A stretch of 64,000 bases of DNA from NCBI RefSeq assembly GCF_044324875.1, contig NZ_CP172185.1. One strand, 5' to 3'. Made by a program: the position numbers and the translations under genes. Shown piece after piece: positions 2,693 through 21,135 of this stretch (position 1 is its first letter; each line of letters begins with the position of its first letter). The notes below the pieces were generated by a model that did not search any database, was not told the origin of the DNA, and worked only from the letters and a program-made list of their open reading frames with translations. The DNA comes from Escherichia coli (GTDB taxonomy: Bacteria; Pseudomonadota; Gammaproteobacteria; Enterobacterales; Enterobacteriaceae).

Positions 2693-3103
2693 TGTCCTTC
2701 TCCTGCAAGAGAATTATTTTAATTTTCGCTTAATTCAGCGAAACCAAAGTAAAGTGGTCAAGCTCCGCGCATGGCGCAAGCTTAGGCAGAAGTAAGGACT
2801 AAAGCGCGTTGCGCCAGTGTTGCTCACCTACGAGCAAGATAGTGGATGAGGTACGAAGATGGGTAAATGTAGAAAATAACGCCCTGAACAAATTGTCCAT
2901 AATATTACAATTATCCGCAGTGTTGCTTCTCGTCATCGCGGATGATAATTGTCCTCGGTAGTTGAACACGCCTGATTTGTATCATAGCTTAAGAATTAAC
3001 TCAAAATATTTTCACTTCTTTACCTGAGCGGTTTGATTTTCGTTATGATGACGGAGCGAAAAAGACATTATTATTAGCAAAGGAAGAAAAAACGGGGACA
3101 AGC

Positions 3104-3268
3104 ATGGCAAAGCCGATCATCACGCTCAATGGCCTAAAAATCGTCATTATGTTGGGAATGCTGGTCATTATTCTCTGCGGTATCCGTTTTGCCGCCGAGA
3201 TCATCGTGCCGTTTATTCTCGCATTATTTATTGCTGTTATATATAACTTATTTCACTTAACACATTGA
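3104..3268 (+). pseudogene. tqsA: tqsA 5' fragment (first ~45 codons of the AI-2 exporter), truncated by island insertion
   Basis: Translates [46 protein letters not shown] then runs into island sequence and stops after 9 more codons. Confidence 0.8.
3232..3240. repeat. attL core, left copy of the 9-bp direct repeat TGCTGTTAT
   Basis: Identical 9-mer at 18813-18821; tqsA reading frame continues across the two copies. Confidence 0.7.
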
Positions 3269-3310
3269 TTTAATTAAATAATTTACACTACAAAAAGTGC
3301 CAAAAATCGC

Positions 3311-3375
3311 AAATTAACTACACCATTAACTACACCGTTCGGCGCACTGTATGAAACAACGTGGAACAAATAGGC
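3311..3375. promoter_or_regulatory. attL-proximal arm repeats: 2x AACTACACC (11-bp period) and 2x GAAACAA/GGAACAA (10-bp period)
   Basis: Direct repeats read from sequence; related repeats near attR; approximate coordinates. Confidence 0.5.
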
Positions 3376-3554
3376 ACAAGAAATATAAAGGCGGGTAATT
3401 TTTAGGGGGCGTTAATGTCGATATGGGGATCCACATATCGAGATTGATACCTGGCTTTTTTTCCGGTTAACCTTTAATCAGGCTGGTGGGCTTTACCTGT
3501 TCTGTAGGAGTGGTCATTATGACCATTCAGCCAATGACCTTAATCAGAATTTTT

Positions 3555-3582
3555 CGCTAAAAAATGACGTTGGCCACGTCAT
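3555..3582 (-). terminator. Rho-independent terminator at the end of the island leftward operon
   Basis: On minus strand: stem ATGACGT/ACGTCAT with 5-nt loop followed by UUUUUU; downstream of last island gene. Confidence 0.55.
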
Positions 3583-3652
3583 CCGGAAAGCACAAAATCA
3601 CGTCGATTTTTAATGGATGGTTAAACCGTCTTTATCTCGATGTCCGTACGTA

Positions 3653-3943
3653 TTACGTACGCAGTCGTTCCGGCTTCTTCCAGTGGTACGTATTTTTCGC
3701 GCTCTCCCTCCGTTGTTGAGAACGGCGACGGTATGCCAGCAACTCAAGGACTCTTGTTCGTATGTTGCGCATATCCACGCCGTTAAGCTCAATACCATCA
3801 CGGCGCATCACCTCCGCAACAACACGCACATAATTTTCGGCGGTCACGCTGTCCGGCTGCGTGGCCTGTTCGTCATGCTGCTGGCTGATTCCGGTAACGC
3901 GGCGGATTAATCCCAGTAGTTCGGCTTCGCTCATTCTCGTCAT
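3653..3943 (-). CDS. hypothetical protein, last gene of packaging operon
   Basis: 96 aa ORF; start overlaps terL stop by 4 bp (translational coupling); no recognisable motif. Confidence 0.55.
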   Translation of the reverse strand: MTRMSEAELLGLIRRVTGISQQHDEQATQPDSVTAENYVRVVAEVMRRDGIELNGVDMRNIRTRVLELLAYRRRSQQRRESAKNTYHWKKPERLRT

Positions 3944-5601
3944 ACCCCATCAAACGCCGCAAGCCGCTCTTTGTGGCTGTCGCTCATATCGAATGCAAAT
4001 TCCTCATGCTCTGCCTGGAATGTGCCAAACGCCATCAGCGCCGCAACGCTCGGGTCTATCTTGTTGGATGATTTTTTCTTGTTCGGCTTGATATTGGCGT
4101 TCGCGTCACTCTGCATCACAACATTACTCATTGACCAGGCCAGCACCGGATCACCACGATGCACAATCACCTTCCGGTTAACAAAAACTTCGAACGATTT
4201 CGCCGCCGGACTGAAACGAAGGTATGTTTGCGGGAACGGCTCCACCTCAAATCCCGCCCCCTGTAGCTGTGTTCTCAGGTGAGTGGCGTTCCATGTATCG
4301 AAGCCCACCAGCCTGATACTGAAATTCTCTGCATCCGCCATGATGTCATCACGGATACGGTCATAATCAATGCAGTCACCCGGTGTTGTGCGTATCCAGC
4401 CAGCCTTTACCCACTGGCGATAGATGGCGCGGTTTTTATTGGCGGGGTTCTGTAGCTGAAATTCCGGCAGATAGTGACGGGAAACCAGCATAATTTTTTT
4501 ACCGACCGGGAAGGCATAGCACACGCTGGAAATATCGCTGGTTGATGATAAGTCCAGCCCCGCGTAGCACTCCTGCCCGTATAAATCCGCCTCCGCGAAC
4601 GTTCCGGCGCACTCCGCCCATGCACCGTTACCCATCCACGGCGTAGCCCCCTGACACCAGATATTGAATCGCTTGGTGAGCATTTCCACCCACTGCGACG
4701 GAATACCCCGCGCTTTCTGGATGGTTGAGGCCAGTTTTTCACGATCGACGGAAACATCGATATTGGGATTCGCCTTTATCCACATCGCCGGATCGTCAAC
4801 CTCGCTTTCATCATCCAGCTCGTAAATCAGCACGAACATGGATTCGTTCACCTCTTCACCATCCAGTATCTGGCAGCAATAGTCATAGTGTTGTTTACAG
4901 GCTGAAACAACGTTGCTCCCCGATGTGGTGATGGCAAATAACAGCCCCTCCGGACGCGCCCCCATTCCCAGCTCAAGCGCGGAATAAACCCCGTTGTCAG
5001 GGTGCAGGTGATATTCATCCACAATGGCAAGACTCGGGTTTGTACCTTCAATGGTTGCCGCTTTTGCTGCCAGTGGCTTTAACAGGCTGTTGGTTTTCGC
5101 GTGTATCACCTTGTGTGCCTGAATATTTACCCGCTTTCGTAACGGTCGGGATAAAAGGCACATCTGACGCGCATCATCAAACACGATCCGCGCCTGATCA
5201 CGACTCACGGCGGCGGTGTAAATATCCTGCTGCCCGTTTTCCATAACCAGAAACCAGTTAGCCAGGATAGCGGCGACCGTGGATTTGGCATTTTTTCGCG
5301 GTACTTCAATGAATGCGCTGGTGTATTTGCGCCGTCCGGTGGCCTTAACCTTAAAGCCCAGGATGCACGCAAAGGCGAACTGCTGCCACGGCTCCAGCTC
5401 AATGGGGCTACCGCGCATTGCGCCTTTTACGTGCGGACACACCCTGGAAAAGGCAATAAACCGCTCCACGACCTCCGGATCGAACGTGTAAAGGGGGTTT
5501 TCAAGGTCAGAAAAATACCGTTTAACAGCCTGTTTCAGTCGTTTACAGGCCGTAATTTTGCCGTTTTTTACGCCTTCTGCGTACTCATGCCAGGCGGTCA
5601 A
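3940..5601 (-). CDS. terL: terminase large subunit
   Basis: 553 aa; ATPase N-terminal region and nuclease C-terminal region typical of phage TerL; adjacent to TerS and HNH. Confidence 0.85.
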   Translation of the reverse strand: MTAWHEYAEGVKNGKITACKRLKQAVKRYFSDLENPLYTFDPEVVERFIAFSRVCPHVKGAMRGSPIELEPWQQFAFACILGFKVKATGRRKYTSAFIEVPRKNAKSTVAAILANWFLVMENGQQDIYTAAVSRDQARIVFDDARQMCLLSRPLRKRVNIQAHKVIHAKTNSLLKPLAAKAATIEGTNPSLAIVDEYHLHPDNGVYSALELGMGARPEGLLFAITTSGSNVVSACKQHYDYCCQILDGEEVNESMFVLIYELDDESEVDDPAMWIKANPNIDVSVDREKLASTIQKARGIPSQWVEMLTKRFNIWCQGATPWMGNGAWAECAGTFAEADLYGQECYAGLDLSSTSDISSVCYAFPVGKKIMLVSRHYLPEFQLQNPANKNRAIYRQWVKAGWIRTTPGDCIDYDRIRDDIMADAENFSIRLVGFDTWNATHLRTQLQGAGFEVEPFPQTYLRFSPAAKSFEVFVNRKVIVHRGDPVLAWSMSNVVMQSDANANIKPNKKKSSNKIDPSVAALMAFGTFQAEHEEFAFDMSDSHKERLAAFDGV

Positions 5602-5941
5602 GCTCGTCCTCTTCCTCTGTTTCCGGTGGATTTCTGCGGCGGCTTACCGGGTCAAAACCCAGCAAAGAAGCCATTTTGATCATTATTCTTTCCGCGTCAG
5701 CCTTTGCGCTCAGGGCGGGGTTTCTGCTCTCGCTGCCCTGACTGTTAACAATGCTGAACCCGCGCGTGGCAAGGTCTTCGACGGCTTTGCGGTATATGGA
5801 GTAGTTAACGCAATACAGCTCCAGATTGCTCCAGTCGGCGGGAGTAAGGTCTTCCCGTCCGGAAAGCTGGCGCGATTTTTCCTTCCACTGCCTGACCGCG
5901 ATTTCATCCAGGTAAGCGGGGGCTTTTGGTGGTCTTGCCAT
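5585..5941 (-). CDS. terS: terminase small subunit (P27-family-like)
   Basis: ORF 5585-5986; likely start MARPPKAPAYL; small basic DNA-binding protein immediately upstream of terL with overlapping stop/start. Confidence 0.7.
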   Translation of the reverse strand: MARPPKAPAYLDEIAVRQWKEKSRQLSGREDLTPADWSNLELYCVNYSIYRKAVEDLATRGFSIVNSQGSESRNPALSAKADAERIMIKMASLLGFDPVSRRRNPPETEEEDELDRLA

Positions 5942-6064
5942 GTTCTTTTTTCGCCCAATTATTTTCAAAAAAATTCCCGTGCACAAAAATTTGAGCAGGC
6001 GGTCGGTTCTGGGCGGGGTCGGGTTCGTCCTGAAAACTCCCCCCCACCCCGTCCGGCTGCCTCA

Positions 6065-6247
6065 TCAGCGATTGCGGAAACATTCCATAACCTCGCGGTC
6101 ACGGTCGTTTAATCGCGTCGCTGTGATGCGTTCTGCGCGTCCTGATGCTTTATCTTTATGCCCTGTTTCCTGTGCCTTCCATGCGTCACGCTGCCTTATC
6201 AGTCCACGAATAAGGCTGTTTTGTTCCCGTTCATTCATCAGCGTCAT
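6065..6247 (-). CDS. small hypothetical protein between HNH and terS
   Basis: Internal start MTLMNE of ORF 6065-6481, fills the gap between HNH and terS; no similarity recognised. Confidence 0.3.
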   Translation of the reverse strand: MTLMNEREQNSLIRGLIRQRDAWKAQETGHKDKASGRAERITATRLNDRDREVMECFRNR

Positions 6248-6671
6248 ACATCCAGTTATTGCGGTTGGCTGCCCGTTCTTCCTCCTCACGGAATCCGCCA
6301 ACTGCACGCTTGTTTTTTGTGGCCGGATCAAGCCATTTCGTTTTCTGGTTATGACACGCCTGACACAATGGCTGATGATTCCACTCAGGCCAGAAGAGAA
6401 CATCATTACCGCCATCGATGGGGATAATGTGATCCACCACCACGGCGGGCGTGTATATTCCTTTTTCCAGGCAATGCGCACATAACGGGTTTTTACTCAG
6501 GTACATAGCGCGGTATTTCTCCCACTGCCTCGTATACCCTCGCTCCCTGCTGCTGCCTCTCCGGCTGTCCTGCTGCTGGCGTGCGCTGCGTCTGTGCTCC
6601 TCACACTTGCCGGACTTCACGCGCCTGTTGCAGCCTGGTTGTGTGCATCGTCTCAATGGTTGCCACGGCAT
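6231..6671 (-). CDS. HNH endonuclease (packaging-associated)
   Basis: 146 aa; Cys-rich with HNH-type His/Asn motif (DHIIPIDGGND...NHQPLCQACHNQK); directly upstream of terS as in HNH-dependent cos packaging systems. Confidence 0.8.
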   Translation of the reverse strand: MPWQPLRRCTQPGCNRRVKSGKCEEHRRSARQQQDSRRGSSRERGYTRQWEKYRAMYLSKNPLCAHCLEKGIYTPAVVVDHIIPIDGGNDVLFWPEWNHQPLCQACHNQKTKWLDPATKNKRAVGGFREEEERAANRNNWMYDADE

Positions 6672-6967
6672 CAGTACACCCCCACATCACGATAAACCGA
6701 CCAGAGCGCGGAAATCGTCAGGGGAATTTCTTTTGTATCGGTATCGCCAAGCGTTGTCCGGTACTCGTACAGTTGCGAGATGTACATCAGGCAACCAATT
6801 TTTATTGCAGGGGTAAATTCCAGGCCGTCATCAAAACGCCTGCCAATATGCTTCTGGCATACCTCCAGCGCCGCGCTTATGTATGCCTGAATCAGTGTGT
6901 CTTCTGTGTTACCATCTATGCGGCAGTGAAGTTTGGCCTCTTCCAGGGTTATTTTTTCTGCTGTCAT
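6671..6967 (-). CDS. head-tail connector protein (gp6-like)
   Basis: 98 aa; size, position and sequence pattern of phage gp6-like connector proteins. Confidence 0.6.
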   Translation of the reverse strand: MTAEKITLEEAKLHCRIDGNTEDTLIQAYISAALEVCQKHIGRRFDDGLEFTPAIKIGCLMYISQLYEYRTTLGDTDTKEIPLTISALWSVYRDVGVY

Positions 6968-7302
6968 TTTTCTGTACCCACCTTTGCCAGAATTTCCAGC
7001 CGGGTTCTTTTCGCATCAGGTAAGGGGATCCCGATGATATTAAGCGTGCTCCCGGCAAAAGCGCCGGTAAGCACTTTCAGGCGACTGGCGGCGGATATGT
7101 CGCCACGATAGCGAACCCATACCCGAATCGTTGCAGGTGCGGTTTCTGCGCCTGCGGTCAGTAATTCCCGTCCGCTGATCCCCTTGACCTCTGCCCAGAT
7201 GGTTTCCCCTTCCGTCCATATCTGCTGGATCGCACCTGACGGCAGGCGCTGTGTGGTAAATGTCATAATCGTCACCCGGTCCCGCATCTTTCCGGCTATC
7301 AT
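6964..7302 (-). CDS. head closure / head-tail adaptor protein
   Basis: 112 aa; position next to portal and connector; overlapping stop/start with neighbours. Confidence 0.55.
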   Translation of the reverse strand: MIAGKMRDRVTIMTFTTQRLPSGAIQQIWTEGETIWAEVKGISGRELLTAGAETAPATIRVWVRYRGDISAASRLKVLTGAFAGSTLNIIGIPLPDAKRTRLEILAKVGTEK

Positions 7303-8516
7303 TCGTCACCGCCCTTACTGTTCTTGCTGATTGTCACTTCCTGCTTCCATGCCTGGCTGAACTCGTCGCCACCTTCACGCGGCGGCATTCCCTCACGCTC
7401 ACGGGCTTCGTTCGGATTGATGATCCCGTTCTTAATCCCTTTCTCATACGTGGCGTAACGTTCGGTAGGGGTGGCGCGTAATAAATCGGCTGAATCAAAC
7501 TCAACCAGATAACGGGTACCAGGTACGGGAGAAGCCACCAGCAAAGCAGCCTTGATTTGCTGTTCGAAGTTCGCCAGCCACGGGCGCATTGTCATGGTCA
7601 GAAACGCGCGGCTTGCCTCACTGAAATTGCTGTAGGTGCTGTTGCTGTATTCCTGCAAAAAAATCGGCGAGACGTTGAACATTCGGGCGATGTCTTCAAT
7701 GGTAAAGCGACGGGAGGCCAGCCATTCAGCATCCTGATTACTCATGCCCAGCTGCTGATAGCTCATACCCCCTTCAAGGATGGGCGTTTTTCCGGCGTTT
7801 CTGGCCCCTTTGTAGCGTTCCAGTGCGGCTAATGCCTGTTTGCCCTTCACGCCGTCCAGCCATTCGCCTGACGTGATAACCCCTGCCGCCATCATGCCAT
7901 CACGCATCACGCTCGCGCCGTGGCGTTGTTGGGCCAGCCCAAGCCCCAGCGATTCGCGGCAGATGGTTACAGGTGAGCGCCCCATAAAGCCGTCATCCGT
8001 GGAGTAACGAAGGTGGAGAACCTCCCACGGTAAATAGTTGCGGGTGTTTCCGGTGTAGGCGTCAGTGATGCAGTAGCGCCAGTTATGCTCACCTGTCTGC
8101 TCCACGTTCACCGACTGCGGCGGGTAAGGATGTAAAGCCACCGGAAAACCATCACGCCCCCACTGAATAACCGCATAAGCATTACCGTTTAACAGGCAGT
8201 GGCGGATCATCATTCGCTTAAACTGGTAGGGGGTTTGCCATGCGTTCGGGCGCTCGTTGAGGATGTGATCGACCGGATGAGAATCAAGCCACTCGCGGGC
8301 CTCCTTCCCCTTCTCATTGCGTACCAGGTACAGGTAACACGGCATGGTAGCCACCGCCTCAGAGATGACCGTCACGGCGTTCATGACGGCGGGCAGTGAT
8401 TCCGCTGTCCCCGATGATACGTACTCACCCGCCCCCGTGTTCGATGTGCCCGCCAGCGCCATAAATTCATCAAGCGTCATGCTGCGCTGCTCTTTTTTTC
8501 TTCTGAAAAGCCACAT
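7299..8516 (-). CDS. portal protein (HK97 family)
   Basis: 405 aa; portal-like sequence; immediately followed by prohead protease. Confidence 0.8.
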   Translation of the reverse strand: MWLFRRKKEQRSMTLDEFMALAGTSNTGAGEYVSSGTAESLPAVMNAVTVISEAVATMPCYLYLVRNEKGKEAREWLDSHPVDHILNERPNAWQTPYQFKRMMIRHCLLNGNAYAVIQWGRDGFPVALHPYPPQSVNVEQTGEHNWRYCITDAYTGNTRNYLPWEVLHLRYSTDDGFMGRSPVTICRESLGLGLAQQRHGASVMRDGMMAAGVITSGEWLDGVKGKQALAALERYKGARNAGKTPILEGGMSYQQLGMSNQDAEWLASRRFTIEDIARMFNVSPIFLQEYSNSTYSNFSEASRAFLTMTMRPWLANFEQQIKAALLVASPVPGTRYLVEFDSADLLRATPTERYATYEKGIKNGIINPNEAREREGMPPREGGDEFSQAWKQEVTISKNSKGGDE

Positions 8517-8517
8517 A

Positions 8518-9090
8518 TCACACCCCCGCTAAATCCACCCACCAGCGGCGATTATCCGCACGCGGCATTTTTTCGGGGTGCTGCTCATACAGGGAACGGC
8601 GGGCCAGCTCCACGCCAGAATCGGGGTAAGCCGGTACCGATGTAACGGTAATTTCGTACAGTTCCGCCACCAGCACGGTACGAACGCATGGATCTGTTGT
8701 GGTATCCCATACATCCTTACGGGAGCGAAAGCCAAAGCTCATGCCGGATATATCACCGCGTTTAACCAGTTCGATAACGTCGCGCCCTGTACTGGTATCC
8801 GGTGGGGTCAGTTCAAAGCGTAACCCTGTTTCGTCCTCTTCCAGTTTCAGCGTGCCGGAACGGGTGCGCCCCAGTAACATGCTGTGGTCATGCTCATACA
8901 GGCCGCGAACGTCATTACCCGCCGCAAGCCATTCAGTAAACGCCCCCCGCTGGAATTTTTCGTAAAACTCACCCCATAACAGTTCTGAAAGCTTATCCCA
9001 GCGAACAACGTAGCCCGTCAGCGTACCGGCTCCGCTCGTGGTGATTTCCGATGACCGGATTTCCATACTCTTCATAATTTTTTCACCCAT
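8518..9090 (-). CDS. prohead protease (HK97 family, S78-like)
   Basis: 190 aa; typical HK97 prohead protease N-terminal pattern; between capsid and portal genes. Confidence 0.8.
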   Translation of the reverse strand: MGEKIMKSMEIRSSEITTSGAGTLTGYVVRWDKLSELLWGEFYEKFQRGAFTEWLAAGNDVRGLYEHDHSMLLGRTRSGTLKLEEDETGLRFELTPPDTSTGRDVIELVKRGDISGMSFGFRSRKDVWDTTTDPCVRTVLVAELYEITVTSVPAYPDSGVELARRSLYEQHPEKMPRADNRRWWVDLAGV

Positions 9091-9129
9091 AAAACACTAA
9101 AGGGGCTTTTAAGCCCCTTCTGTATGCTG

Positions 9130-16268: not shown

Positions 16269-16316
16269 TCACTATCAGCGCCGTGGTGTGAGGTACTGCG
16301 GCGCATTGTTTTAAAG

Positions 16317-16517
16317 GTGATAATTATGAATAACCAGGAACTACAAAATAAAGCATTATCAATTATCATGCGCCAGCGTGAGAAAACCCGCAGGGAAATA
16401 AATAAGGCATTAACCCGCACTGAAAATCTTAAAGTTCCTGATAAGTTCGCCCTTGATCCTTTTGTCGAGAAATACCCTCGGCGCTTAAAAGCAAACAAAA
16501 ACCGCCCACCTGGCTGA
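16317..16517 (+). CDS. hypothetical small basic protein
   Basis: 66 aa ORF downstream of RHH gene; followed by two terminators. Confidence 0.45.
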   Translation: MIIMNNQELQNKALSIIMRQREKTRREINKALTRTENLKVPDKFALDPFVEKYPRRLKANKNRPPG

Positions 16518-16550
16518 CAATCCACCAGCAAGCCAGGACACTGATCACAT

Positions 16551-16579
16551 TGGCCACCGTGACAGGTGGCCTTTTCTTT
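16551..16579 (+). terminator. Rho-independent terminator
   Basis: GGCCACC..GGTGGCC stem followed by TTTTCTTT. Confidence 0.55.
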
Positions 16580-16675
16580 GCCCGTTATCCGGCAATTGTG
16601 GCGCTTCGTCACCTGGCTGATATAATTCCACTGCTTATATTCATTTTTTGCGCAGTAGGTTAATTGTTCAGAAAG

Positions 16676-16704
16676 GCGGCTCCTTATCGGGGCCGCTTTT
16701 TTTA
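16676..16704 (+). terminator. Rho-independent terminator
   Basis: GGCGGCTCC..GGGGCCGC stem followed by T7. Confidence 0.55.
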
Positions 16705-16844
16705 TGCCTGAAAAACCGCGATTTTGTTGTTTTTCAGTTTCACCAGGCCGAACGAAGCCCCGCCCCTGTTCGGGCGTATATCCAGTCTTCATGGTTAAAT
16801 CTCTGTATTAGTGGATGGGTGGCGGCTGTGTGCCGCCAGTCTTT

Positions 16845-17033
16845 TTAGTGAACTGCCTCGCAGCTTTCCTTCCATGCCAGAACTTCGGATAAAGACCAGC
16901 CAACGGAACGACCGCCCAGCTTACGCCGTGATGGGAATTGTCCGGCCTTTTCCAGGCGGTAGCGGCATGAGCGGCTAAGTCCTGTTAGCTTTTCGCATTC
17001 TTTTTCACGTATAAACCGATCAGTACTTAACAC
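16845..17033 (-). CDS. alpA: AlpA-family phage regulatory protein (transcriptional activator / excision factor-like)
   Basis: 62 aa; helix-turn-helix pattern matching remembered AlpA proteins of P4-like islands; adjacent to integrase. Confidence 0.85.
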   Translation of the reverse strand: MLSTDRFIREKECEKLTGLSRSCRYRLEKAGQFPSRRKLGGRSVGWSLSEVLAWKESCEAVH

Positions 17034-17193
17034 TATTGCCCCCTTTCGTTTCTTAAAGAGTTATTTCGTGTTCTATTGCGTTGGTATGTGTCTGATTGTG
17101 TCAGGGTGATTCAGAGTTGGCAAATGTTGGTGGCGGGTATTTTACAGAAACGGGGTAATTTTAATAAAAAACATTTTAATTCAGTATTATGCA

Positions 17194-17226
17194 AAGGCAT
17201 AAAATCTCGTTTTATGCCTTTTTTCT
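17194..17226 (+). terminator. Orphan hairpin plus T-run between int and alpA
   Basis: AAGGCATAAAA..TTTTATGCCTT stem followed by TTTTTT on + strand; no + strand gene upstream. Confidence 0.35.
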
Positions 17227-17315
17227 CACTATTTAAAGCGTTATTCGCTAATGTATAAAAAACCAGTTGAGCATTAAAAATCAGCAACTTATAAGTCTGT
17301 ATACTTTTTCGCCTC

Positions 17316-17360
17316 TTGTTCGTGGTTGTTCCACGTTGTTTCACATTGTTCGCCGTTGTA
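17316..17360. repeat. Four tandem 10-bp GAACAA-type repeats (minus-strand orientation) between int and alpA
   Basis: Reverse complement reads GCGAACAATG TGAAACAACG TGGAACAACC ACGAACAAG. Confidence 0.6.
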
Positions 17361-17407
17361 TCTGTGTGCTTATCCAGTATGCGCATACTGAAAAAACACG
17401 AAAAAAA

Positions 17408-18637
17408 TTATTTTCTTCTGGCTACTGGTAGCGTGGTTACGTTTTCATGTGCTCCCGCCAGTATCTCCAACCGCTCCACCCACATATCCAGCGCATTGCG
17501 TTTCGCATCCAGATAACGGGAATGATTATAAACTCGCTGCATTCCTGGCATCTGGTGGCCTGTAAGCTGCTCCACGACATGCGGATCAACGCCTAAATCG
17601 TTCAGCATGGTTGTAAAGGTGCGCCGGATGTCATGCAGTGACCAGTGAGGGTGTTTAAGCCTCCTGTGCGCTAATCTTCCATACTGCGATACGCTGGCCT
17701 CCTGTTTCACTTCCCCCAGCAATAAGCCCGTGTGCCTGTTCTGCTCCACCAGCTGCGTGACGAACGGCAGTATCGCTTCCGGTATGGGCCGGAATATGGC
17801 TACCTTCGTTTTGCTGTGCTCCTTCGGAACGGTCCATAGCATTTCGGTAAAATCCCACTCCCCGATCTCCGATAGCCTCAGTTCTACTGTCCTGGCTCCG
17901 AAGACAATCAGGAGGCGGATTAGTGCGACGTAGTAAGGGGAAAATATTTTTTTATCCAGCGCCTGCAATAACTCGCCCAGTTCTTTGGTGCTTAAGACAC
18001 GTTCGCTTATATCCGGTTTTTTCCCAACGTCCGCCACGTTCAGATCGTCCAGAACGTTGCTGATTGCATAGCGCCGCCTACGGCAAAACTTAAGCGCCTG
18101 TTTGCACGCCTGTAGCACGAATCCGGCAGTAACAGGCGTTCGCTTTGCCACCTGGTCAAAACAGGCCAGCCAGTGCCGTAGCTCGCATTTATCCAGCGGC
18201 ATAGCACCAATGTGCTGTATTACGTGATTATTAACTCGCCTTTTCAGGGCGATATAATCCACGCGGTTTTCCTTTACGTAAGACTCAAGCCAGTAGGTGA
18301 GCGCATCGCCAACCGTTACCGGCTTTAACGCTTCCTGTACGGCGTAATTCATCTCATGGCGTGGATTTTTCCCCTCCGCCAGCCATGCGCGACACTGGGC
18401 GGCTTTTTCCCTGGCTGCTTTCAGGCTCAGATCAGGATAATTTCCCAGCTTAATACGTTCCGGTCGTGTCTCTCTTCCCGTTCCTGCCCTGTAAGTGAAA
18501 TACCAGGTTAATATCCCTGATGTTAAATATTTCACGCTCAGATTTCCGCCATCGCTATAAAACGTGTTTTTCTCCGCTGGCTTACCATGAAGTTTCCTTA
18601 GCAAGGTATCGCTCAGTTTGTTCATTGCTCTGCTCAC
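17408..18637 (-). CDS. int: tyrosine integrase, P4 type
   Basis: 409 aa; N-terminal arm-binding domain pattern and C-terminal catalytic region (HDIRRT...Y); terminal position next to attR. Confidence 0.9.
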   Translation of the reverse strand: MSRAMNKLSDTLLRKLHGKPAEKNTFYSDGGNLSVKYLTSGILTWYFTYRAGTGRETRPERIKLGNYPDLSLKAAREKAAQCRAWLAEGKNPRHEMNYAVQEALKPVTVGDALTYWLESYVKENRVDYIALKRRVNNHVIQHIGAMPLDKCELRHWLACFDQVAKRTPVTAGFVLQACKQALKFCRRRRYAISNVLDDLNVADVGKKPDISERVLSTKELGELLQALDKKIFSPYYVALIRLLIVFGARTVELRLSEIGEWDFTEMLWTVPKEHSKTKVAIFRPIPEAILPFVTQLVEQNRHTGLLLGEVKQEASVSQYGRLAHRRLKHPHWSLHDIRRTFTTMLNDLGVDPHVVEQLTGHQMPGMQRVYNHSRYLDAKRNALDMWVERLEILAGAHENVTTLPVARRK

Positions 18638-18661
18638 GCTTTACCCCTTGTTTACGAAAAA

Positions 18662-18790
18662 GTGACTACACCAGTGACTACACCGATCGTTGCACAAAGG
18701 GCTACAACGTGAAACAAGCTGGAACAAGAAAAATCACAAATTTGTTTATAATCAAAAACATAATGAACAAACTGAAACATTATGAAACGG
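18662..18790. promoter_or_regulatory. attR-proximal arm repeats and int promoter region: 2x GTGACTACACC, then GAAACAA/GGAACAA and TGAACAAAC/TGAAAC repeats
   Basis: Direct repeats read from sequence immediately upstream of int and inside attR arm. Confidence 0.5.
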
Positions 18791-18812
18791 CAAAAAACAC
18801 TAATTGATAAAA

Positions 18813-18821
18813 TGCTGTTAT
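18813..18821. repeat. attR core, right copy of TGCTGTTAT
   Basis: Identical to 3232-3240; tqsA sequence resumes. Confidence 0.7.
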
Positions 18822-19719
18822 TCTTAACCCGCTGGTGCAACACATGGTCCGCTGGCGTGTGCCGCGTGTACTGGCAGTGTCGATTTTGATGACCATCATC
18901 GTGATGGCGATGGTGTTGCTATTAGCTTATCTGGGTTCCGCGCTCAACGAGTTGACGCGGACGTTACCGCAATATCGCAACTCTATTATGACGCCGCTGC
19001 AAGCGATTGAACCGTTGTTGCAACGCGTAGGGATTGATGTCTCAGTTGACCAACTGGCGCATTACATTGATCCGAACGCGGCGATGACGTTGCTCACCAA
19101 CTTATTGACGCAGTTATCTAATGCCATGTCATCAATATTTTTATTGCTGCTGACGGTGCTGTTTATGCTGCTCGAAGTGCCACAATTGCCCGGAAAATTT
19201 CAGCAAATGATGGCGCGTCCGGTTGAAGGGATGGCGGCGATTCAGCGTGCGATTGACAGTGTTTCTCATTATCTGGTGCTGAAAACAGCCATCAGCATCA
19301 TCACCGGCCTGGTCGCCTGGGCGATGCTCGCCGCACTCGATGTTCGCTTCGCTTTTGTCTGGGGATTGCTGGCCTTTGCGCTTAATTACATCCCGAATAT
19401 TGGTTCAGTTCTCGCGGCAATCCCCCCTATCGCTCAGGTATTGGTGTTTAATGGCTTCTACGAAGCGTTGCTGGTGCTGGCGGGATATCTGCTGATTAAT
19501 CTGGTCTTCGGCAATATTCTGGAGCCACGCATCATGGGGCGTGGGCTGGGGCTTTCCACGTTGGTGGTATTTCTGTCGTTGATTTTTTGGGGATGGTTGT
19601 TAGGACCGGTGGGTATGCTGCTTTCCGTGCCGTTGACAATTATTGTCAAAATTGCGCTTGAACAAACAGCGGGAGGTCAAAGCATCGCCGTTCTGTTAAG
19701 CGATCTCAATAAAGAGTGA
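18813..19719 (+). pseudogene. tqsA: tqsA 3' portion (AI-2 exporter lacking its first ~45 codons)
   Basis: Sequence continues [13 protein letters not shown]...; in-frame stops (TGA TAA) immediately upstream in island DNA; ORF track 18835-19719. Confidence 0.8.
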
Positions 19720-19742
19720 CGGCCTCCGCAGAGGCCGTCAGG
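19717..19742. terminator. Bidirectional terminator between tqsA and pntB
   Basis: GACGGCCTC..GAGGCCGTC hairpin between convergent genes. Confidence 0.5.
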
Positions 19743-19743
19743 G

Positions 19744-21135
<1,392 letters not shown>

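What the first reader, a model, noticed from the sequence alone, without database searches (positions are those of the whole stretch)
17194..17226. Orphan plus-strand terminator-like hairpin in the AT-rich int-alpA spacer
A strong A/T-flanked hairpin with a T6 run on the plus strand sits where only minus-strand genes are annotated. It could end an antisense or small RNA that covers the alpA promoter region, or act as a bidirectional terminator for int.
Basis: seen in the sequence. Interest (0 to 1): 0.3.

Follow-up and report, generated by a model that had tools for sequence, protein, structure and literature searches.

The report
Conserved hairpin between satellite int and alpA
A small, conserved terminator-like hairpin sits between the integrase gene and the master switch gene (alpA) of a phage satellite island in E. 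coli; it most likely stops stray transcription from reaching the switch, which makes it an ordinary kind of element in an interesting place.

Summary
A perfect 12-bp inverted repeat (17193-17204 / 17210-17221, loop 5 nt) is followed by a T6 run (17219-17224). It lies in the 36%-GC spacer between int (17408-18637, -) and alpA (16845-17033, -).

The island is a capsid-forming PICI satellite inserted in tqsA, related to EcCIEDL933 and EcCICFT073. In that family alpA is the helper-phage-activated master switch.

The hairpin was present in all 116 related spacers I could anchor. One base pair shows a compensatory change (A-T, through an intermediate, to G-C).

Almost all other stem changes are G.U wobbles on the minus (int/alpA sense) RNA and A.C mismatches on the plus RNA. 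The RNAalifold consensus energy is -9.7 kcal/mol on minus and -1.8 on plus.

Against that, the T6 run on the plus strand is invariant, and the sense-strand U-tract is poor (UUUG).

Best reading: a leaky bidirectional terminator that insulates the alpA promoter (TTGCCA-17-CACAAT, 17123-17095) from int read-through and from antisense transcription. No conserved plus-strand promoter or Rfam family supports a small RNA. It is a new member of a known kind, of modest interest. Existing Term-seq and dRNA-seq data for EHEC Sakai would decide the strand.

The parts
17193..17221 (.). Hairpin: arms AAAGGCATAAAA / TTTTATGCCTTT with loop TCTCG. The core is the 9-bp stem GGCATAAAA / TTTTATGCC, extended by AAA/TTT.
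   Evidence: Sequence. Folds of -13.4 (+) and -12.8 (-) kcal/mol. Listed as inverted repeat I6. Rare in the window. Present in all 116 anchored relatives.
17219..17224 (+). T6 run. It is a U-tract for a + strand transcript and an A6 tract 5' of the hairpin on the sense (-) RNA.
   Evidence: Invariant in all 23 distinct variants and all 116 copies. It gives the + orientation a canonical terminator tail.
17186..17195 (-). Sense-strand 3' tail of the hairpin, UUUGCAUAAU. This is a poor U-tract: its first three U's (17195-17193) are the last three bases of the 12-bp stem.
   Evidence: UUUG is kept in 18 of 23 variants. In the cq9-type variants it is replaced by CUACUG.
17408..18637 (-). Tyrosine integrase gene (stop codon TAA at 17408-17410). 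The hairpin lies 184 nt downstream of it on the same strand.
   Evidence: ORF. Pfam PF13356 + PF00589. RefSeq annotation of homologues.
17095..17123 (-). Putative alpA promoter, TTGCCA-17-CACAAT. Its -35 hexamer lies about 70 nt downstream of the hairpin on the sense strand.
   Evidence: It is the only promoter-like site that recurs in all four spacer classes. It is a consensus match only; the transcription start is not mapped.
16845..17033 (-). alpA (62 aa, GTG start; ribosome-binding site AAGGGGG at about 17039-17045).
   Evidence: Pfam PF05930, E = 5e-18. Homologue of EcCICFT073 alpA, the helper-activated master activator (PMC6092414).

Best explanation
The hairpin is a conserved RNA-level stem-loop that acts as a leaky, bidirectional intrinsic terminator. 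It insulates two units in the integration zone of a capsid-forming PICI satellite.

On the sense (minus) strand it is the first terminator-like structure after int. It lies about 70 nt upstream of the alpA promoter's -35 hexamer. There it would stop or reduce int read-through, so that alpA fires only from its own promoter. In this family that promoter is helper-phage-responsive and auto-activated.

On the plus strand the same stem plus the T6 run would stop antisense transcripts that arise in the AT-rich promoter region, or that escape the upstream + strand terminators, before they run into int.

Shown: the structure, its conservation, pairing-preserving substitutions, and its position relative to int, alpA and the one conserved promoter-like site.

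Inferred: that it terminates transcription at all, the efficiency in each direction, and the benefit of keeping alpA silent.
For: - Structure is real and non-random.
- Context: the island encodes TerL, HNH, portal, protease, capsid, SSB, helicase, a C4-like RNA, AlpA and Int, between mdtJI and a truncated tqsA. This matches the cf-PICI type of EcCIEDL933 and EcCICFT073.
- alpA plus the spacer is found in 886 of 5426 complete E. coli genomes. The spacer is never annotated in the genomes inspected.
- All 116 relatives fetched through a flanking conserved box, not through the hairpin, contain it.
- Pair 7 of the 12-bp stem (A17199-T17215; columns 13/28 of A5) is A-U in 12 variants, G-C in 6 and G.U in 5.
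- By my count, 7 of 8 uncompensated transition events in the 9-bp core are wobble on the minus RNA only.
- Cells forming a standard pair: 94.2% on minus against 88.8% on plus.
- RNAalifold consensus energy: -9.71 kcal/mol on minus against -1.82 on plus.
- Per-variant MFE is more negative on minus in 21 of 30 variants. Copy-weighted means are -13.3 and -10.1 kcal/mol.
- The T6 run is invariant, and the + orientation has the better terminator score. This supports a second, antisense direction.
- No other terminator-like site lies between the int stop and the hairpin on the sense strand.
- Unrelated PICI spacers carry sense-strand hairpin + U-run structures between int(-orfX) and alpA: L075 (-15.8 kcal/mol, U7), L227 (-17.7, U7), L220 (-18.4, U5), L225 (-12.5).
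- Literature: alpA over-expression alone drives excision and uncontrolled, toxic replication; Pint is separate and is not controlled by AlpA (PMC6092414).
Against: - The sense-strand tail is only UUUG(C/U)AU. It is absent in the cq9-type variants (about 13 of 116 copies). All minus-strand versions score negative on the classical discriminant (formula recalled from memory and used with modern energy parameters).
- The stem has only 3 G-C pairs.
- 184 nt is a long way from the int stop for a terminator.
- No plus-strand transcript source has been identified.
- The strand asymmetry rests on few independent events: about 7 to 1, one-sided p about 0.035. It loses significance if the left arm is constrained for another reason.
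- The left arm is 97% conserved and the right arm about 80% (the right-arm figure is lowered somewhat by a MAFFT gap).
- The hairpin is not the most conserved block of the spacer.
- I could not read any 3'-end or transcript data.
Confidence: 0.45

Rival explanations
1. Plus-strand-only terminator. A short antisense or small RNA starts in the AT-rich stretch upstream, for example from TTTACA (17141-17146)-N18-TAAAAA (17165-17170). It would begin near 17177 and end at the T6 run, giving an RNA of about 48 nt.
For: - T6 is invariant in 116 of 116 copies, while the 5' AAA is lost in the cq9-type variants.
- The window's own stem is perfect and the + orientation scores as a terminator (d = +6.5).
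- The cq9-type hairpin was called a + strand terminator by the scan.
- TTTACA and (A)TAAAA are conserved at fixed spacing. The stretch 17174-17205 is among the best-conserved parts of the spacer.
Against: - The candidate promoter has an 18-19 nt spacer. Its -10 lacks the final T in most classes. The scan did not report it in any class.
- The only + strand site the scan did report (17161-17190) would start transcription inside the stem and is not conserved.
- The + strand stem carries A.C mismatches in most copies. The core falls to -4.0 to -5.3 kcal/mol, and the whole hairpin to -3.1 (L018) and -1.4 to -4.3 (L017).
- RNAalifold consensus is only -1.8 kcal/mol with a positive covariation term.
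- No Rfam family matches.
- The + strand ORF across it is broken by indels in relatives.
Confidence: 0.2
2. A sense-strand RNA element that is not a terminator. It could be a 3' stem-loop that protects int mRNA from 3'-5' exonucleases or marks an RNase III site, as the sib/tI hairpin does downstream of lambda int. Or it could be a 5' leader hairpin of a second alpA promoter lying in the conserved box (TACATT on the minus strand at 17255-17250, start near 17242).
For: - The minus-strand fold is the one conserved, yet it lacks a proper U-tract.
- The most conserved block of the spacer (17242-17266) lies just upstream on the sense strand. It holds a TAcAyT hexamer kept in all classes.
- Phased GAACAA repeats and an IHF consensus lie upstream of that block, as expected for an activator-dependent promoter.
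- The reporter fragment that responds to the helper phage in another PICI, EcCIMP1 (homology to this spacer not checked), spans -449 to +50 of alpA, longer than this whole 374-bp spacer (PMC11773190).
Against: - The -35 of the putative upstream promoter is not conserved, and the scan never reported it.
- This reading does not explain why the A6/T6 tract is invariant.
- No processing or stability data exist.
Confidence: 0.2
3. A DNA-level palindromic binding site for a dimeric regulator of the alpA promoter, for example the unknown helper-phage inducer. RNA folding would then be irrelevant.
For: - A perfect 12-bp dyad lies about 70-100 bp upstream of the -35, in the region that responds to helper phage.
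- The left arm and the 20 nt before it are highly conserved.
Against: - The two half-sites are not equally conserved: 97% against about 80%.
- Most family members have an imperfect dyad. The imperfections are almost all transitions that keep RNA wobble pairing on one strand.
- One pair changed on both sides, which changes both half-sites together.
- Other half-site matches in the island lie in coding or unrelated sequence.
- AlpA/Xis-type proteins usually bind direct repeats (general knowledge), and such repeats lie elsewhere in the spacer.
Confidence: 0.08
4. A relic or neutral hairpin that has hitch-hiked with the int-alpA module and has no present function.
For: - The whole right half of the spacer is fairly well conserved (81-92%), so conservation of the hairpin alone is not decisive.
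- The family is young and confined to E. coli-like genomes.
Against: - There is a compensatory change and a one-sided wobble pattern.
- The T6 run is invariant among variable neighbours.
- The hairpin persists across at least four spacer classes and three integration sites: tqsA, roxA and allE.
Confidence: 0.05

Closest known systems
Bidirectional Rho-independent terminators of E. coli (A-tract, stem-loop, U-tract). General knowledge, including full-length RNA profiling studies of convergent genes.
   Same: An A-run, a short-loop perfect stem and a T-run, so each strand reads as hairpin plus U's. The hairpin lies in an intergenic AT-rich stretch.
   Different: The hairpin here lies between two co-directional genes, not convergent ones. 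The two sides are unequal (A3/U3 against T6). The stem is AU-rich with only 3 G-C pairs. No 3' ends have been mapped.
Lambda tI terminator / sib retroregulator downstream of int. Established knowledge: PI transcripts stop at tI, while N-antiterminated PL transcripts read through and form an RNase III site that destroys int mRNA.
   Same: A hairpin a couple of hundred nucleotides downstream of an integrase gene, on the sense strand, positioned to set the fate of int transcripts.
   Different: There is no sequence similarity, and the phage collection gave no match. In lambda the site lies across attP and is separated from int in the prophage. Here it stays linked to int and sits upstream of the next regulatory gene. 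RNase III involvement is untested.
The int-alpA 'integration zone' of Gram-negative PICIs and cf-PICIs: EcCICFT073, EcCIEDL933 (OI-51/CP-933C/Sp7), EcCIMP1.
   Same: Same gene order and orientation. The AlpA family is PF05930. alpA plus the spacer is 78-82% identical to CFT073 and O157. This is the region where the helper phage and AlpA itself switch alpA on (PMC6092414; PMC11773190).
   Different: In the four PICI papers where I searched the text for 'terminator' (PMC6092414, PMC11773190, PMC10111431, bioRxiv 2022.09.08.507074), none describes a terminator or hairpin in the int-alpA spacer. The element is unannotated.
Leader or upstream terminators before alpA in more distant PICIs
   Same: Sense-strand hairpin plus U-run between int(-orfX) and alpA. 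This is the same presumed insulating logic.
   Different: The sequences are unrelated. The stems are GC-rich (-16 to -18 kcal/mol) with canonical U5-U7 tracts. In L219-L227 the hairpin abuts the alpA AUG and hides its ribosome-binding site.

Membership tests
Rho-independent (intrinsic) terminator, plus strand | Stable stem-loop (5-14 bp, loop 3-8 nt) directly followed by a run of 5 or more U's | tested here: met
   In the window: 12-13 bp stem, -13.4 kcal/mol, then T6, with discriminant d = +6.5 (formula recalled from memory). In most relatives the stem carries A.C mismatches and d is negative.
Rho-independent (intrinsic) terminator, plus strand | Lies at the end of a transcription unit on the same strand (a promoter or gene upstream) | tested here: not met
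   No + strand gene lies within 670 nt. The upstream + genes have their own terminators at 16278, 16552 and 16820. No conserved + strand promoter-like site was found.
Rho-independent (intrinsic) terminator, minus (sense) strand | Stable stem-loop directly followed by a run of 5 or more U's | tested here: inconclusive
   The stem is conserved, at -12.5 to -16.6 kcal/mol in the common variants. The tail is only UUUG(C/U)AU, with 4-6 U in 8 nt, and is absent in the cq9-type variants. The discriminant is negative throughout.
Rho-independent (intrinsic) terminator, minus (sense) strand | Lies downstream of a gene on the same strand | tested here: met
   It is 184 nt after the int stop codon and is the first terminator-like structure there.
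Intrinsic terminator, either strand | RNA 3' ends map to the U-tract, and termination is seen in vitro or in a reporter | not testable with these tools
   Sakai Term-seq and dRNA-seq data exist (PMC7547250; bioRxiv 2025.11.27.690950), but no supplementary tables are held.
Structured RNA element under selection | Pairing kept through compensatory or wobble changes across relatives | tested here: met
   On the minus strand, 1 pair changed on both sides (AU 12, GC 6, GU 5) and 4 pairs vary by wobble only. 94.2% of cells are paired, and only 3 of 500 shuffles reach the observed values. Consensus energy is -9.71 kcal/mol. The evidence is modest because the events are few and the sequences are related.
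Known RNA family (Rfam 15) or small-RNA gene | Match to a curated covariance model, or a promoter + body + terminator unit | tested here: not met
   cmscan of 13000-20000 at E up to 1 returned only C4, c4-a1b1, isrK-like and a weak Atu_C8 match (E = 0.77). All four lie elsewhere in the scanned stretch. HnrS/EcOnc10-12 lie in other prophages.
Palindromic operator for a dimeric DNA-binding protein | Both half-sites equally conserved, with further copies at co-regulated promoters | tested here: not met
   Left arm 97% conserved against about 80% for the right arm. The other near-matches to the half-site are in coding or unrelated sequence.
Target of AlpA-type antitermination (P. aeruginosa AlpA with the tB terminator) | The regulator is homologous to P. 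aeruginosa AlpA (residues numbered to at least 142; 21Q-like fold), with an ABE between -35 and -10 | tested here: not met
   The AlpA here is a 62-aa PF05930 protein. Its only PDB sequence match is 8c3t. P. aeruginosa AlpA is an eight-helix, 21Q-like protein with residues numbered to at least 142 (PMC9371919). The shared name is a coincidence.
cf-PICI / Gram-negative PICI (context of the hairpin) | int and alpA co-oriented at one end, a primase or helicase replication module, and (for cf-PICI) capsid, portal, protease, HNH and TerL genes | tested here: met
   Pfam hits. Gene order as in L001, L002 and L009. Family description in bioRxiv 2022.09.08.507074.

The most novel reading that the evidence does not exclude
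The hairpin could be the actual control point of satellite induction. In the uninduced state it would stop sense transcripts, either from Pint or from an upstream AlpA-dependent promoter in the conserved box. A helper-phage function (an antiterminator or processivity factor of lambdoid helpers) or AlpA itself would then let RNA polymerase read through it into alpA. That would answer how helper phages switch alpA on. The inducer was reported as still unidentified in 2018 (PMC6092414), and I found no later paper that names it.
Probability: 0.08. Interest if true: 0.65.

Novelty: new member of a known kind. Interest (0 to 1): 0.3.

Why it matters
alpA is the master switch of Gram-negative PICI and cf-PICI satellites. 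Expressing it alone causes excision and runaway, toxic replication, and how helper phages turn it on is not known (PMC6092414).

A conserved terminator-like hairpin lies between the int gene, which has its own AlpA-independent promoter, and the alpA promoter. It is a plausible safeguard that keeps the switch off.

It is also a defined, mutable element for anyone dissecting the int-alpA control region. That region also holds phased GAACAA repeats, an IHF consensus and a highly conserved 25-bp box.

If the hairpin is only an ordinary insulator, the gain is a better annotation of a spacer found, together with alpA, in about 16% of complete E. coli genomes.

Tried and rejected
1. AlpA as an antiterminator acting on this hairpin. 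Rejected: P. aeruginosa AlpA is an unrelated, much larger 21Q-like protein.
2. Searching species-representative genomes. The Int protein search found nothing. The degenerate box pattern gave only chance hits in unrelated taxa. The family was therefore not seen outside E. coli-type genomes.
3. The phage collection had no match to the spacer.
4. A small ORF. The + strand 60-aa ORF (17076-17258) is broken by indels in relatives. The minus-strand AUG inside the stem meets a stop after 4 codons in O157-type spacers. Rejected.
5. Repeated operator half-sites. Three near-matches elsewhere in the island lie in coding or unrelated sequence.
6. A sigma-54 promoter or an Ogr/delta-type TGT-N12-ACA site at the alpA promoter. 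Neither was seen by eye.
7. Literature search for transcript data at Sp7/OI-51 (EcOnc, ECs1574-1576, Term-seq). Nothing usable was found. One search was wasted on the ambiguous term 'Sp7'.
8. MAFFT alignments A3 and A4 placed gaps inside the stem. I rebuilt gap-free alignments with the loops trimmed to 4 nt (A5, A6). The absolute RNAalifold energies are therefore approximate.
9. An early script anchored on the wrong T-run. This was corrected.
10. Some coordinates in my early notes were 10 nt off. They are corrected.

Full report
**What is there**

The window holds AAAGGCATAAAA-TCTCG-TTTTATGCCTTT at 17193-17221, followed by three more T's, so the T run is 17219-17224.
- As RNA it folds to -13.4 kcal/mol on the + strand (z = -6.1) and -12.8 on the - strand (z = -4.65).
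- Perfect short-loop inverted repeats of 11 bp or more occur at 5 sites in the window, against 0.1 expected.
- The spacer is 35.6% GC, and 27% around the hairpin, against 50% for the window.
- The hairpin lies between int (17408-18637, minus; PF13356 + PF00589) and a 62-aa alpA (16845-17033, minus; PF05930).

**Context**

The island runs from the mdtJI side to a tqsA gene that has lost its N-terminus.
- It encodes TerL, HNH, portal, prohead protease, major capsid, SSB, a RepA-like helicase, Icd-like proteins and a C4/isrK-like RNA, with alpA and int at one end.
- This is the capsid-forming PICI (cf-PICI) architecture. The O157:H7 relative beside roxA is OI-51/CP-933C/Sp7, that is EcCIEDL933. 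The CFT073 relative is EcCICFT073.
[quoted passage not shown] The phage inducer was unidentified in 2018 (PMC6092414).
- Pint is separate and is not controlled by AlpA. alpA over-expression alone drives excision and uncontrolled, toxic replication (PMC6092414; PMC11773190).
- In the four PICI papers where I searched for 'terminator', none describes one in the int-alpA spacer.

**Distribution**

- The spacer matches 381 of 5426 complete E. coli genomes by megablast. alpA plus the spacer matches 886 by blastn. No feature is annotated in the spacer in any genome inspected.
- I then fetched relatives through a conserved box that lies 18 nt to the right of the T run (window 17242-17266), not through the hairpin itself. 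This gave 54 IMG/VR contigs and 50 metagenome contigs.
- With the E. coli loci this made 120 sequences. Four were chance pattern hits. All the other 116 contain the hairpin.
- Species-representative genomes gave only chance hits.

**Is the structure selected, and on which strand?**

Thirteen arm combinations occur. The window's perfect palindrome is a minority form, with 9 copies. The commonest forms have a + strand right arm of TTTTACGCC (35 copies), TTTCATGCC (34) or TTCCATGCC (18). Each T-to-C change gives an A.C mismatch on + strand RNA and a G.U wobble on - strand RNA.

- At stem pair 7 (A17199-T17215) the series is A-T, then A.C / G.U, then G-C. This is a full compensation, seen in the O169-type and cq9-type variants.
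- Counting events by eye on the two flank-defined lineages, 7 uncompensated transitions in the 9-bp core are compatible with the minus strand only and 1 (a singleton, L054) with the plus strand only. There are also 3-4 transversions.
- Formal counts on gap-free alignments give 94.2% standard pairs on minus against 88.8% on plus. One pair changed on both sides (AU 12, GC 6, GU 5).
- RNAalifold gives -9.71 kcal/mol on minus (9 pairs, covariation term -0.75) against -1.82 on plus (7 pairs, +0.16).
- Per-variant MFE is more negative on minus in 21 of 30 variants. Copy-weighted means are -13.3 and -10.1 kcal/mol.

Caveats:
- The events are few (one-sided p about 0.035) and the sequences are related.
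- The + strand left arm is much more conserved than the right arm: 97% against about 80%. If the left arm is constrained for some other reason, right-arm drift alone would give mostly minus-compatible changes, because that arm is T-rich.
- The compensatory A-to-G change in the otherwise conserved left arm argues that pairing itself matters.

**Evidence pointing the other way**

- The T6 run on the + strand is invariant in all 116 copies, although its neighbours vary.
- The sense-strand tail is only UUUG(C/U)AU, and in the cq9-type variants it is CUACUG.
- I applied the d'Aubenton-Carafa discriminant, recalled from memory and used with modern energy parameters. The + orientation scores +6.5 in the window and +2.1 in the O169 type. 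Every minus-strand version is negative, from -20 to -64. The common + strand variants are also negative, from -10 to -17, because of the A.C mismatches.
- So neither strand is a textbook terminator across the family. The + strand has the tail and the - strand has the stem.

**Surroundings**

- The only promoter-like site that recurs in all four spacer classes is TTGCCA-17-(C/A)ACAAT on the minus strand (window 17123-17095). It sits about 55 nt upstream of the alpA start codon, which has a good ribosome-binding site.
- The hairpin is about 70 nt upstream of that site's -35 hexamer and 184 nt downstream of the int stop.
- There is no other terminator-like structure on the sense strand in between.
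- No + strand promoter-like site is conserved. The one in the window (17161-17190) would start transcription inside the stem.
- The + strand genes to the left (about 16090-16518) have their own terminators at 16278, 16552 and 16820.
- Rfam has nothing at the hairpin.

**Generalisation**

In unrelated PICI integration zones found through AlpA homologues (57-68% identity), sense-strand hairpin + U-run structures again lie between int(-orfX) and alpA:
- L075: directly after int (-15.8 kcal/mol, U7).
- L225: after orfX (-12.5 kcal/mol).
- L219-L227: abutting the alpA AUG, with the ribosome-binding site inside the stem (-17.7 and -18.4 kcal/mol; U7 and U5).

Antisense-oriented candidates were few and weak. 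Stopping sense transcription before alpA therefore looks like a recurrent design.

**Interpretation**

I commit to a leaky bidirectional terminator or insulator, with confidence 0.45.
- The sense RNA hairpin ends or reduces int read-through before the alpA promoter. This explains its position, the minus-strand pairing constraint and the analogues in other PICIs.
- The same stem plus the T6 run blocks antisense transcripts. This explains the invariant T run.
- A strong tail can tolerate a weakened stem and a weak tail needs an intact stem. That would account for the odd division of conservation between the two strands (inference).

Rivals:
- A + strand-only terminator of a roughly 48-nt antisense or small RNA (0.2).
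- A sense-strand stability or processing hairpin like lambda sib/tI, or a leader hairpin of a second alpA promoter in the conserved box (0.2).
- A protein-binding palindrome (0.08).
- No function (0.05).

**Verdict**

'Orphan plus-strand terminator' is only half right. The element is a new, unannotated member of a known kind, in a regulatory spacer that matters for satellite induction. Interest is about 0.3. Published Sakai Term-seq and dRNA-seq tracks would settle the strand question directly.

Noticed in passing
window 17316-17360 (minus-strand reading), and 18704-18742 / 18767-18805 (+ strand): Five TTGTT repeats at an exact 10-bp period (GAACAA on the minus strand) lie between the int stop and the hairpin. 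Similar 10-bp-phased GAAACAA/GGAACAA repeats lie in the opposite orientation upstream of int, near the island end. The two sets flank int as inverted arrays. They are candidate AlpA (activator/excisionase) or Int arm-type binding sites.
   Followed up: partly
window 17242-17266: TATTCGCTAATGTATAAAAAACCAG is the most conserved block of the whole int-alpA spacer, more conserved than the hairpin, and is unexplained. It contains TATAAA on the + strand (17254-17259, with TTTAAA 16 nt upstream at 17232-17237). It contains TACATT on the - strand (17255-17250). It could therefore be a promoter in either direction.
   Followed up: partly
window 17279-17291: AATCAGCAACTTA is a perfect match to the IHF consensus WATCARNNNNTTR. 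It is kept, with different N's, in the CFT073-type and EH01-type spacers. It lies between the phased repeats and the conserved box.
   Followed up: partly
window 17375-17390: A perfect 16-bp palindrome, CAGTATGCGCATACTG, lies about 20 nt after the int stop codon and is flanked by T/A runs. It is present in window-type spacers but not in CFT073-type ones. It has no U-tract on either strand.
   Followed up: no
L219-L227 (e.g. L227 2075-2118, L220 2165-2203): In more distant PICIs (int-orfX-alpA order; AlpA 63-68% identical) a strong GC-rich hairpin (-17.7 and -18.4 kcal/mol) with a U5-U7 run directly abuts the alpA AUG. The GAGG ribosome-binding site lies inside its 3' arm. It looks like a leader terminator or translational lock on alpA.
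   Followed up: partly
window 15472-15676 (minus strand): Rfam C4 antisense RNA (72 bits, above the gathering score), its a1/b1 target motif (44 bits) and an isrK-like match sit downstream of alpA. This suggests a P1/P4-style RNA immunity module inside this cf-PICI.
   Followed up: no
window 16278-16304, 16552-16571, 16820-16838 (+ strand): Three canonical + strand terminators lie in a row after the small + strand genes (YlcI/YnfO-like and a hypothetical). The last is only 7 nt from the alpA stop codon. They would shield alpA from convergent transcription.
   Followed up: no
window ~2700-18835: The cf-PICI is inserted in tqsA, which RefSeq annotates as missing its N-terminus in the closest relative. 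Relatives of the same int-alpA module sit beside roxA (O157, O103, CFT073) or allE (E300010). No direct repeat of 10 bp or more between the two island ends was found in a quick search.
   Followed up: partly
window 18661-18684: An exact tandem duplication, AGTGACTACACC x2, lies just upstream of the int start, next to the phased GAAACAA repeats.
   Followed up: no
window 41821-41851, 46726-46755, 58790-58816, 60405-60430: These are the four other perfect 11-12 bp short-loop inverted repeats in the window, probably terminators of chromosomal genes. I did not examine them.
   Followed up: no
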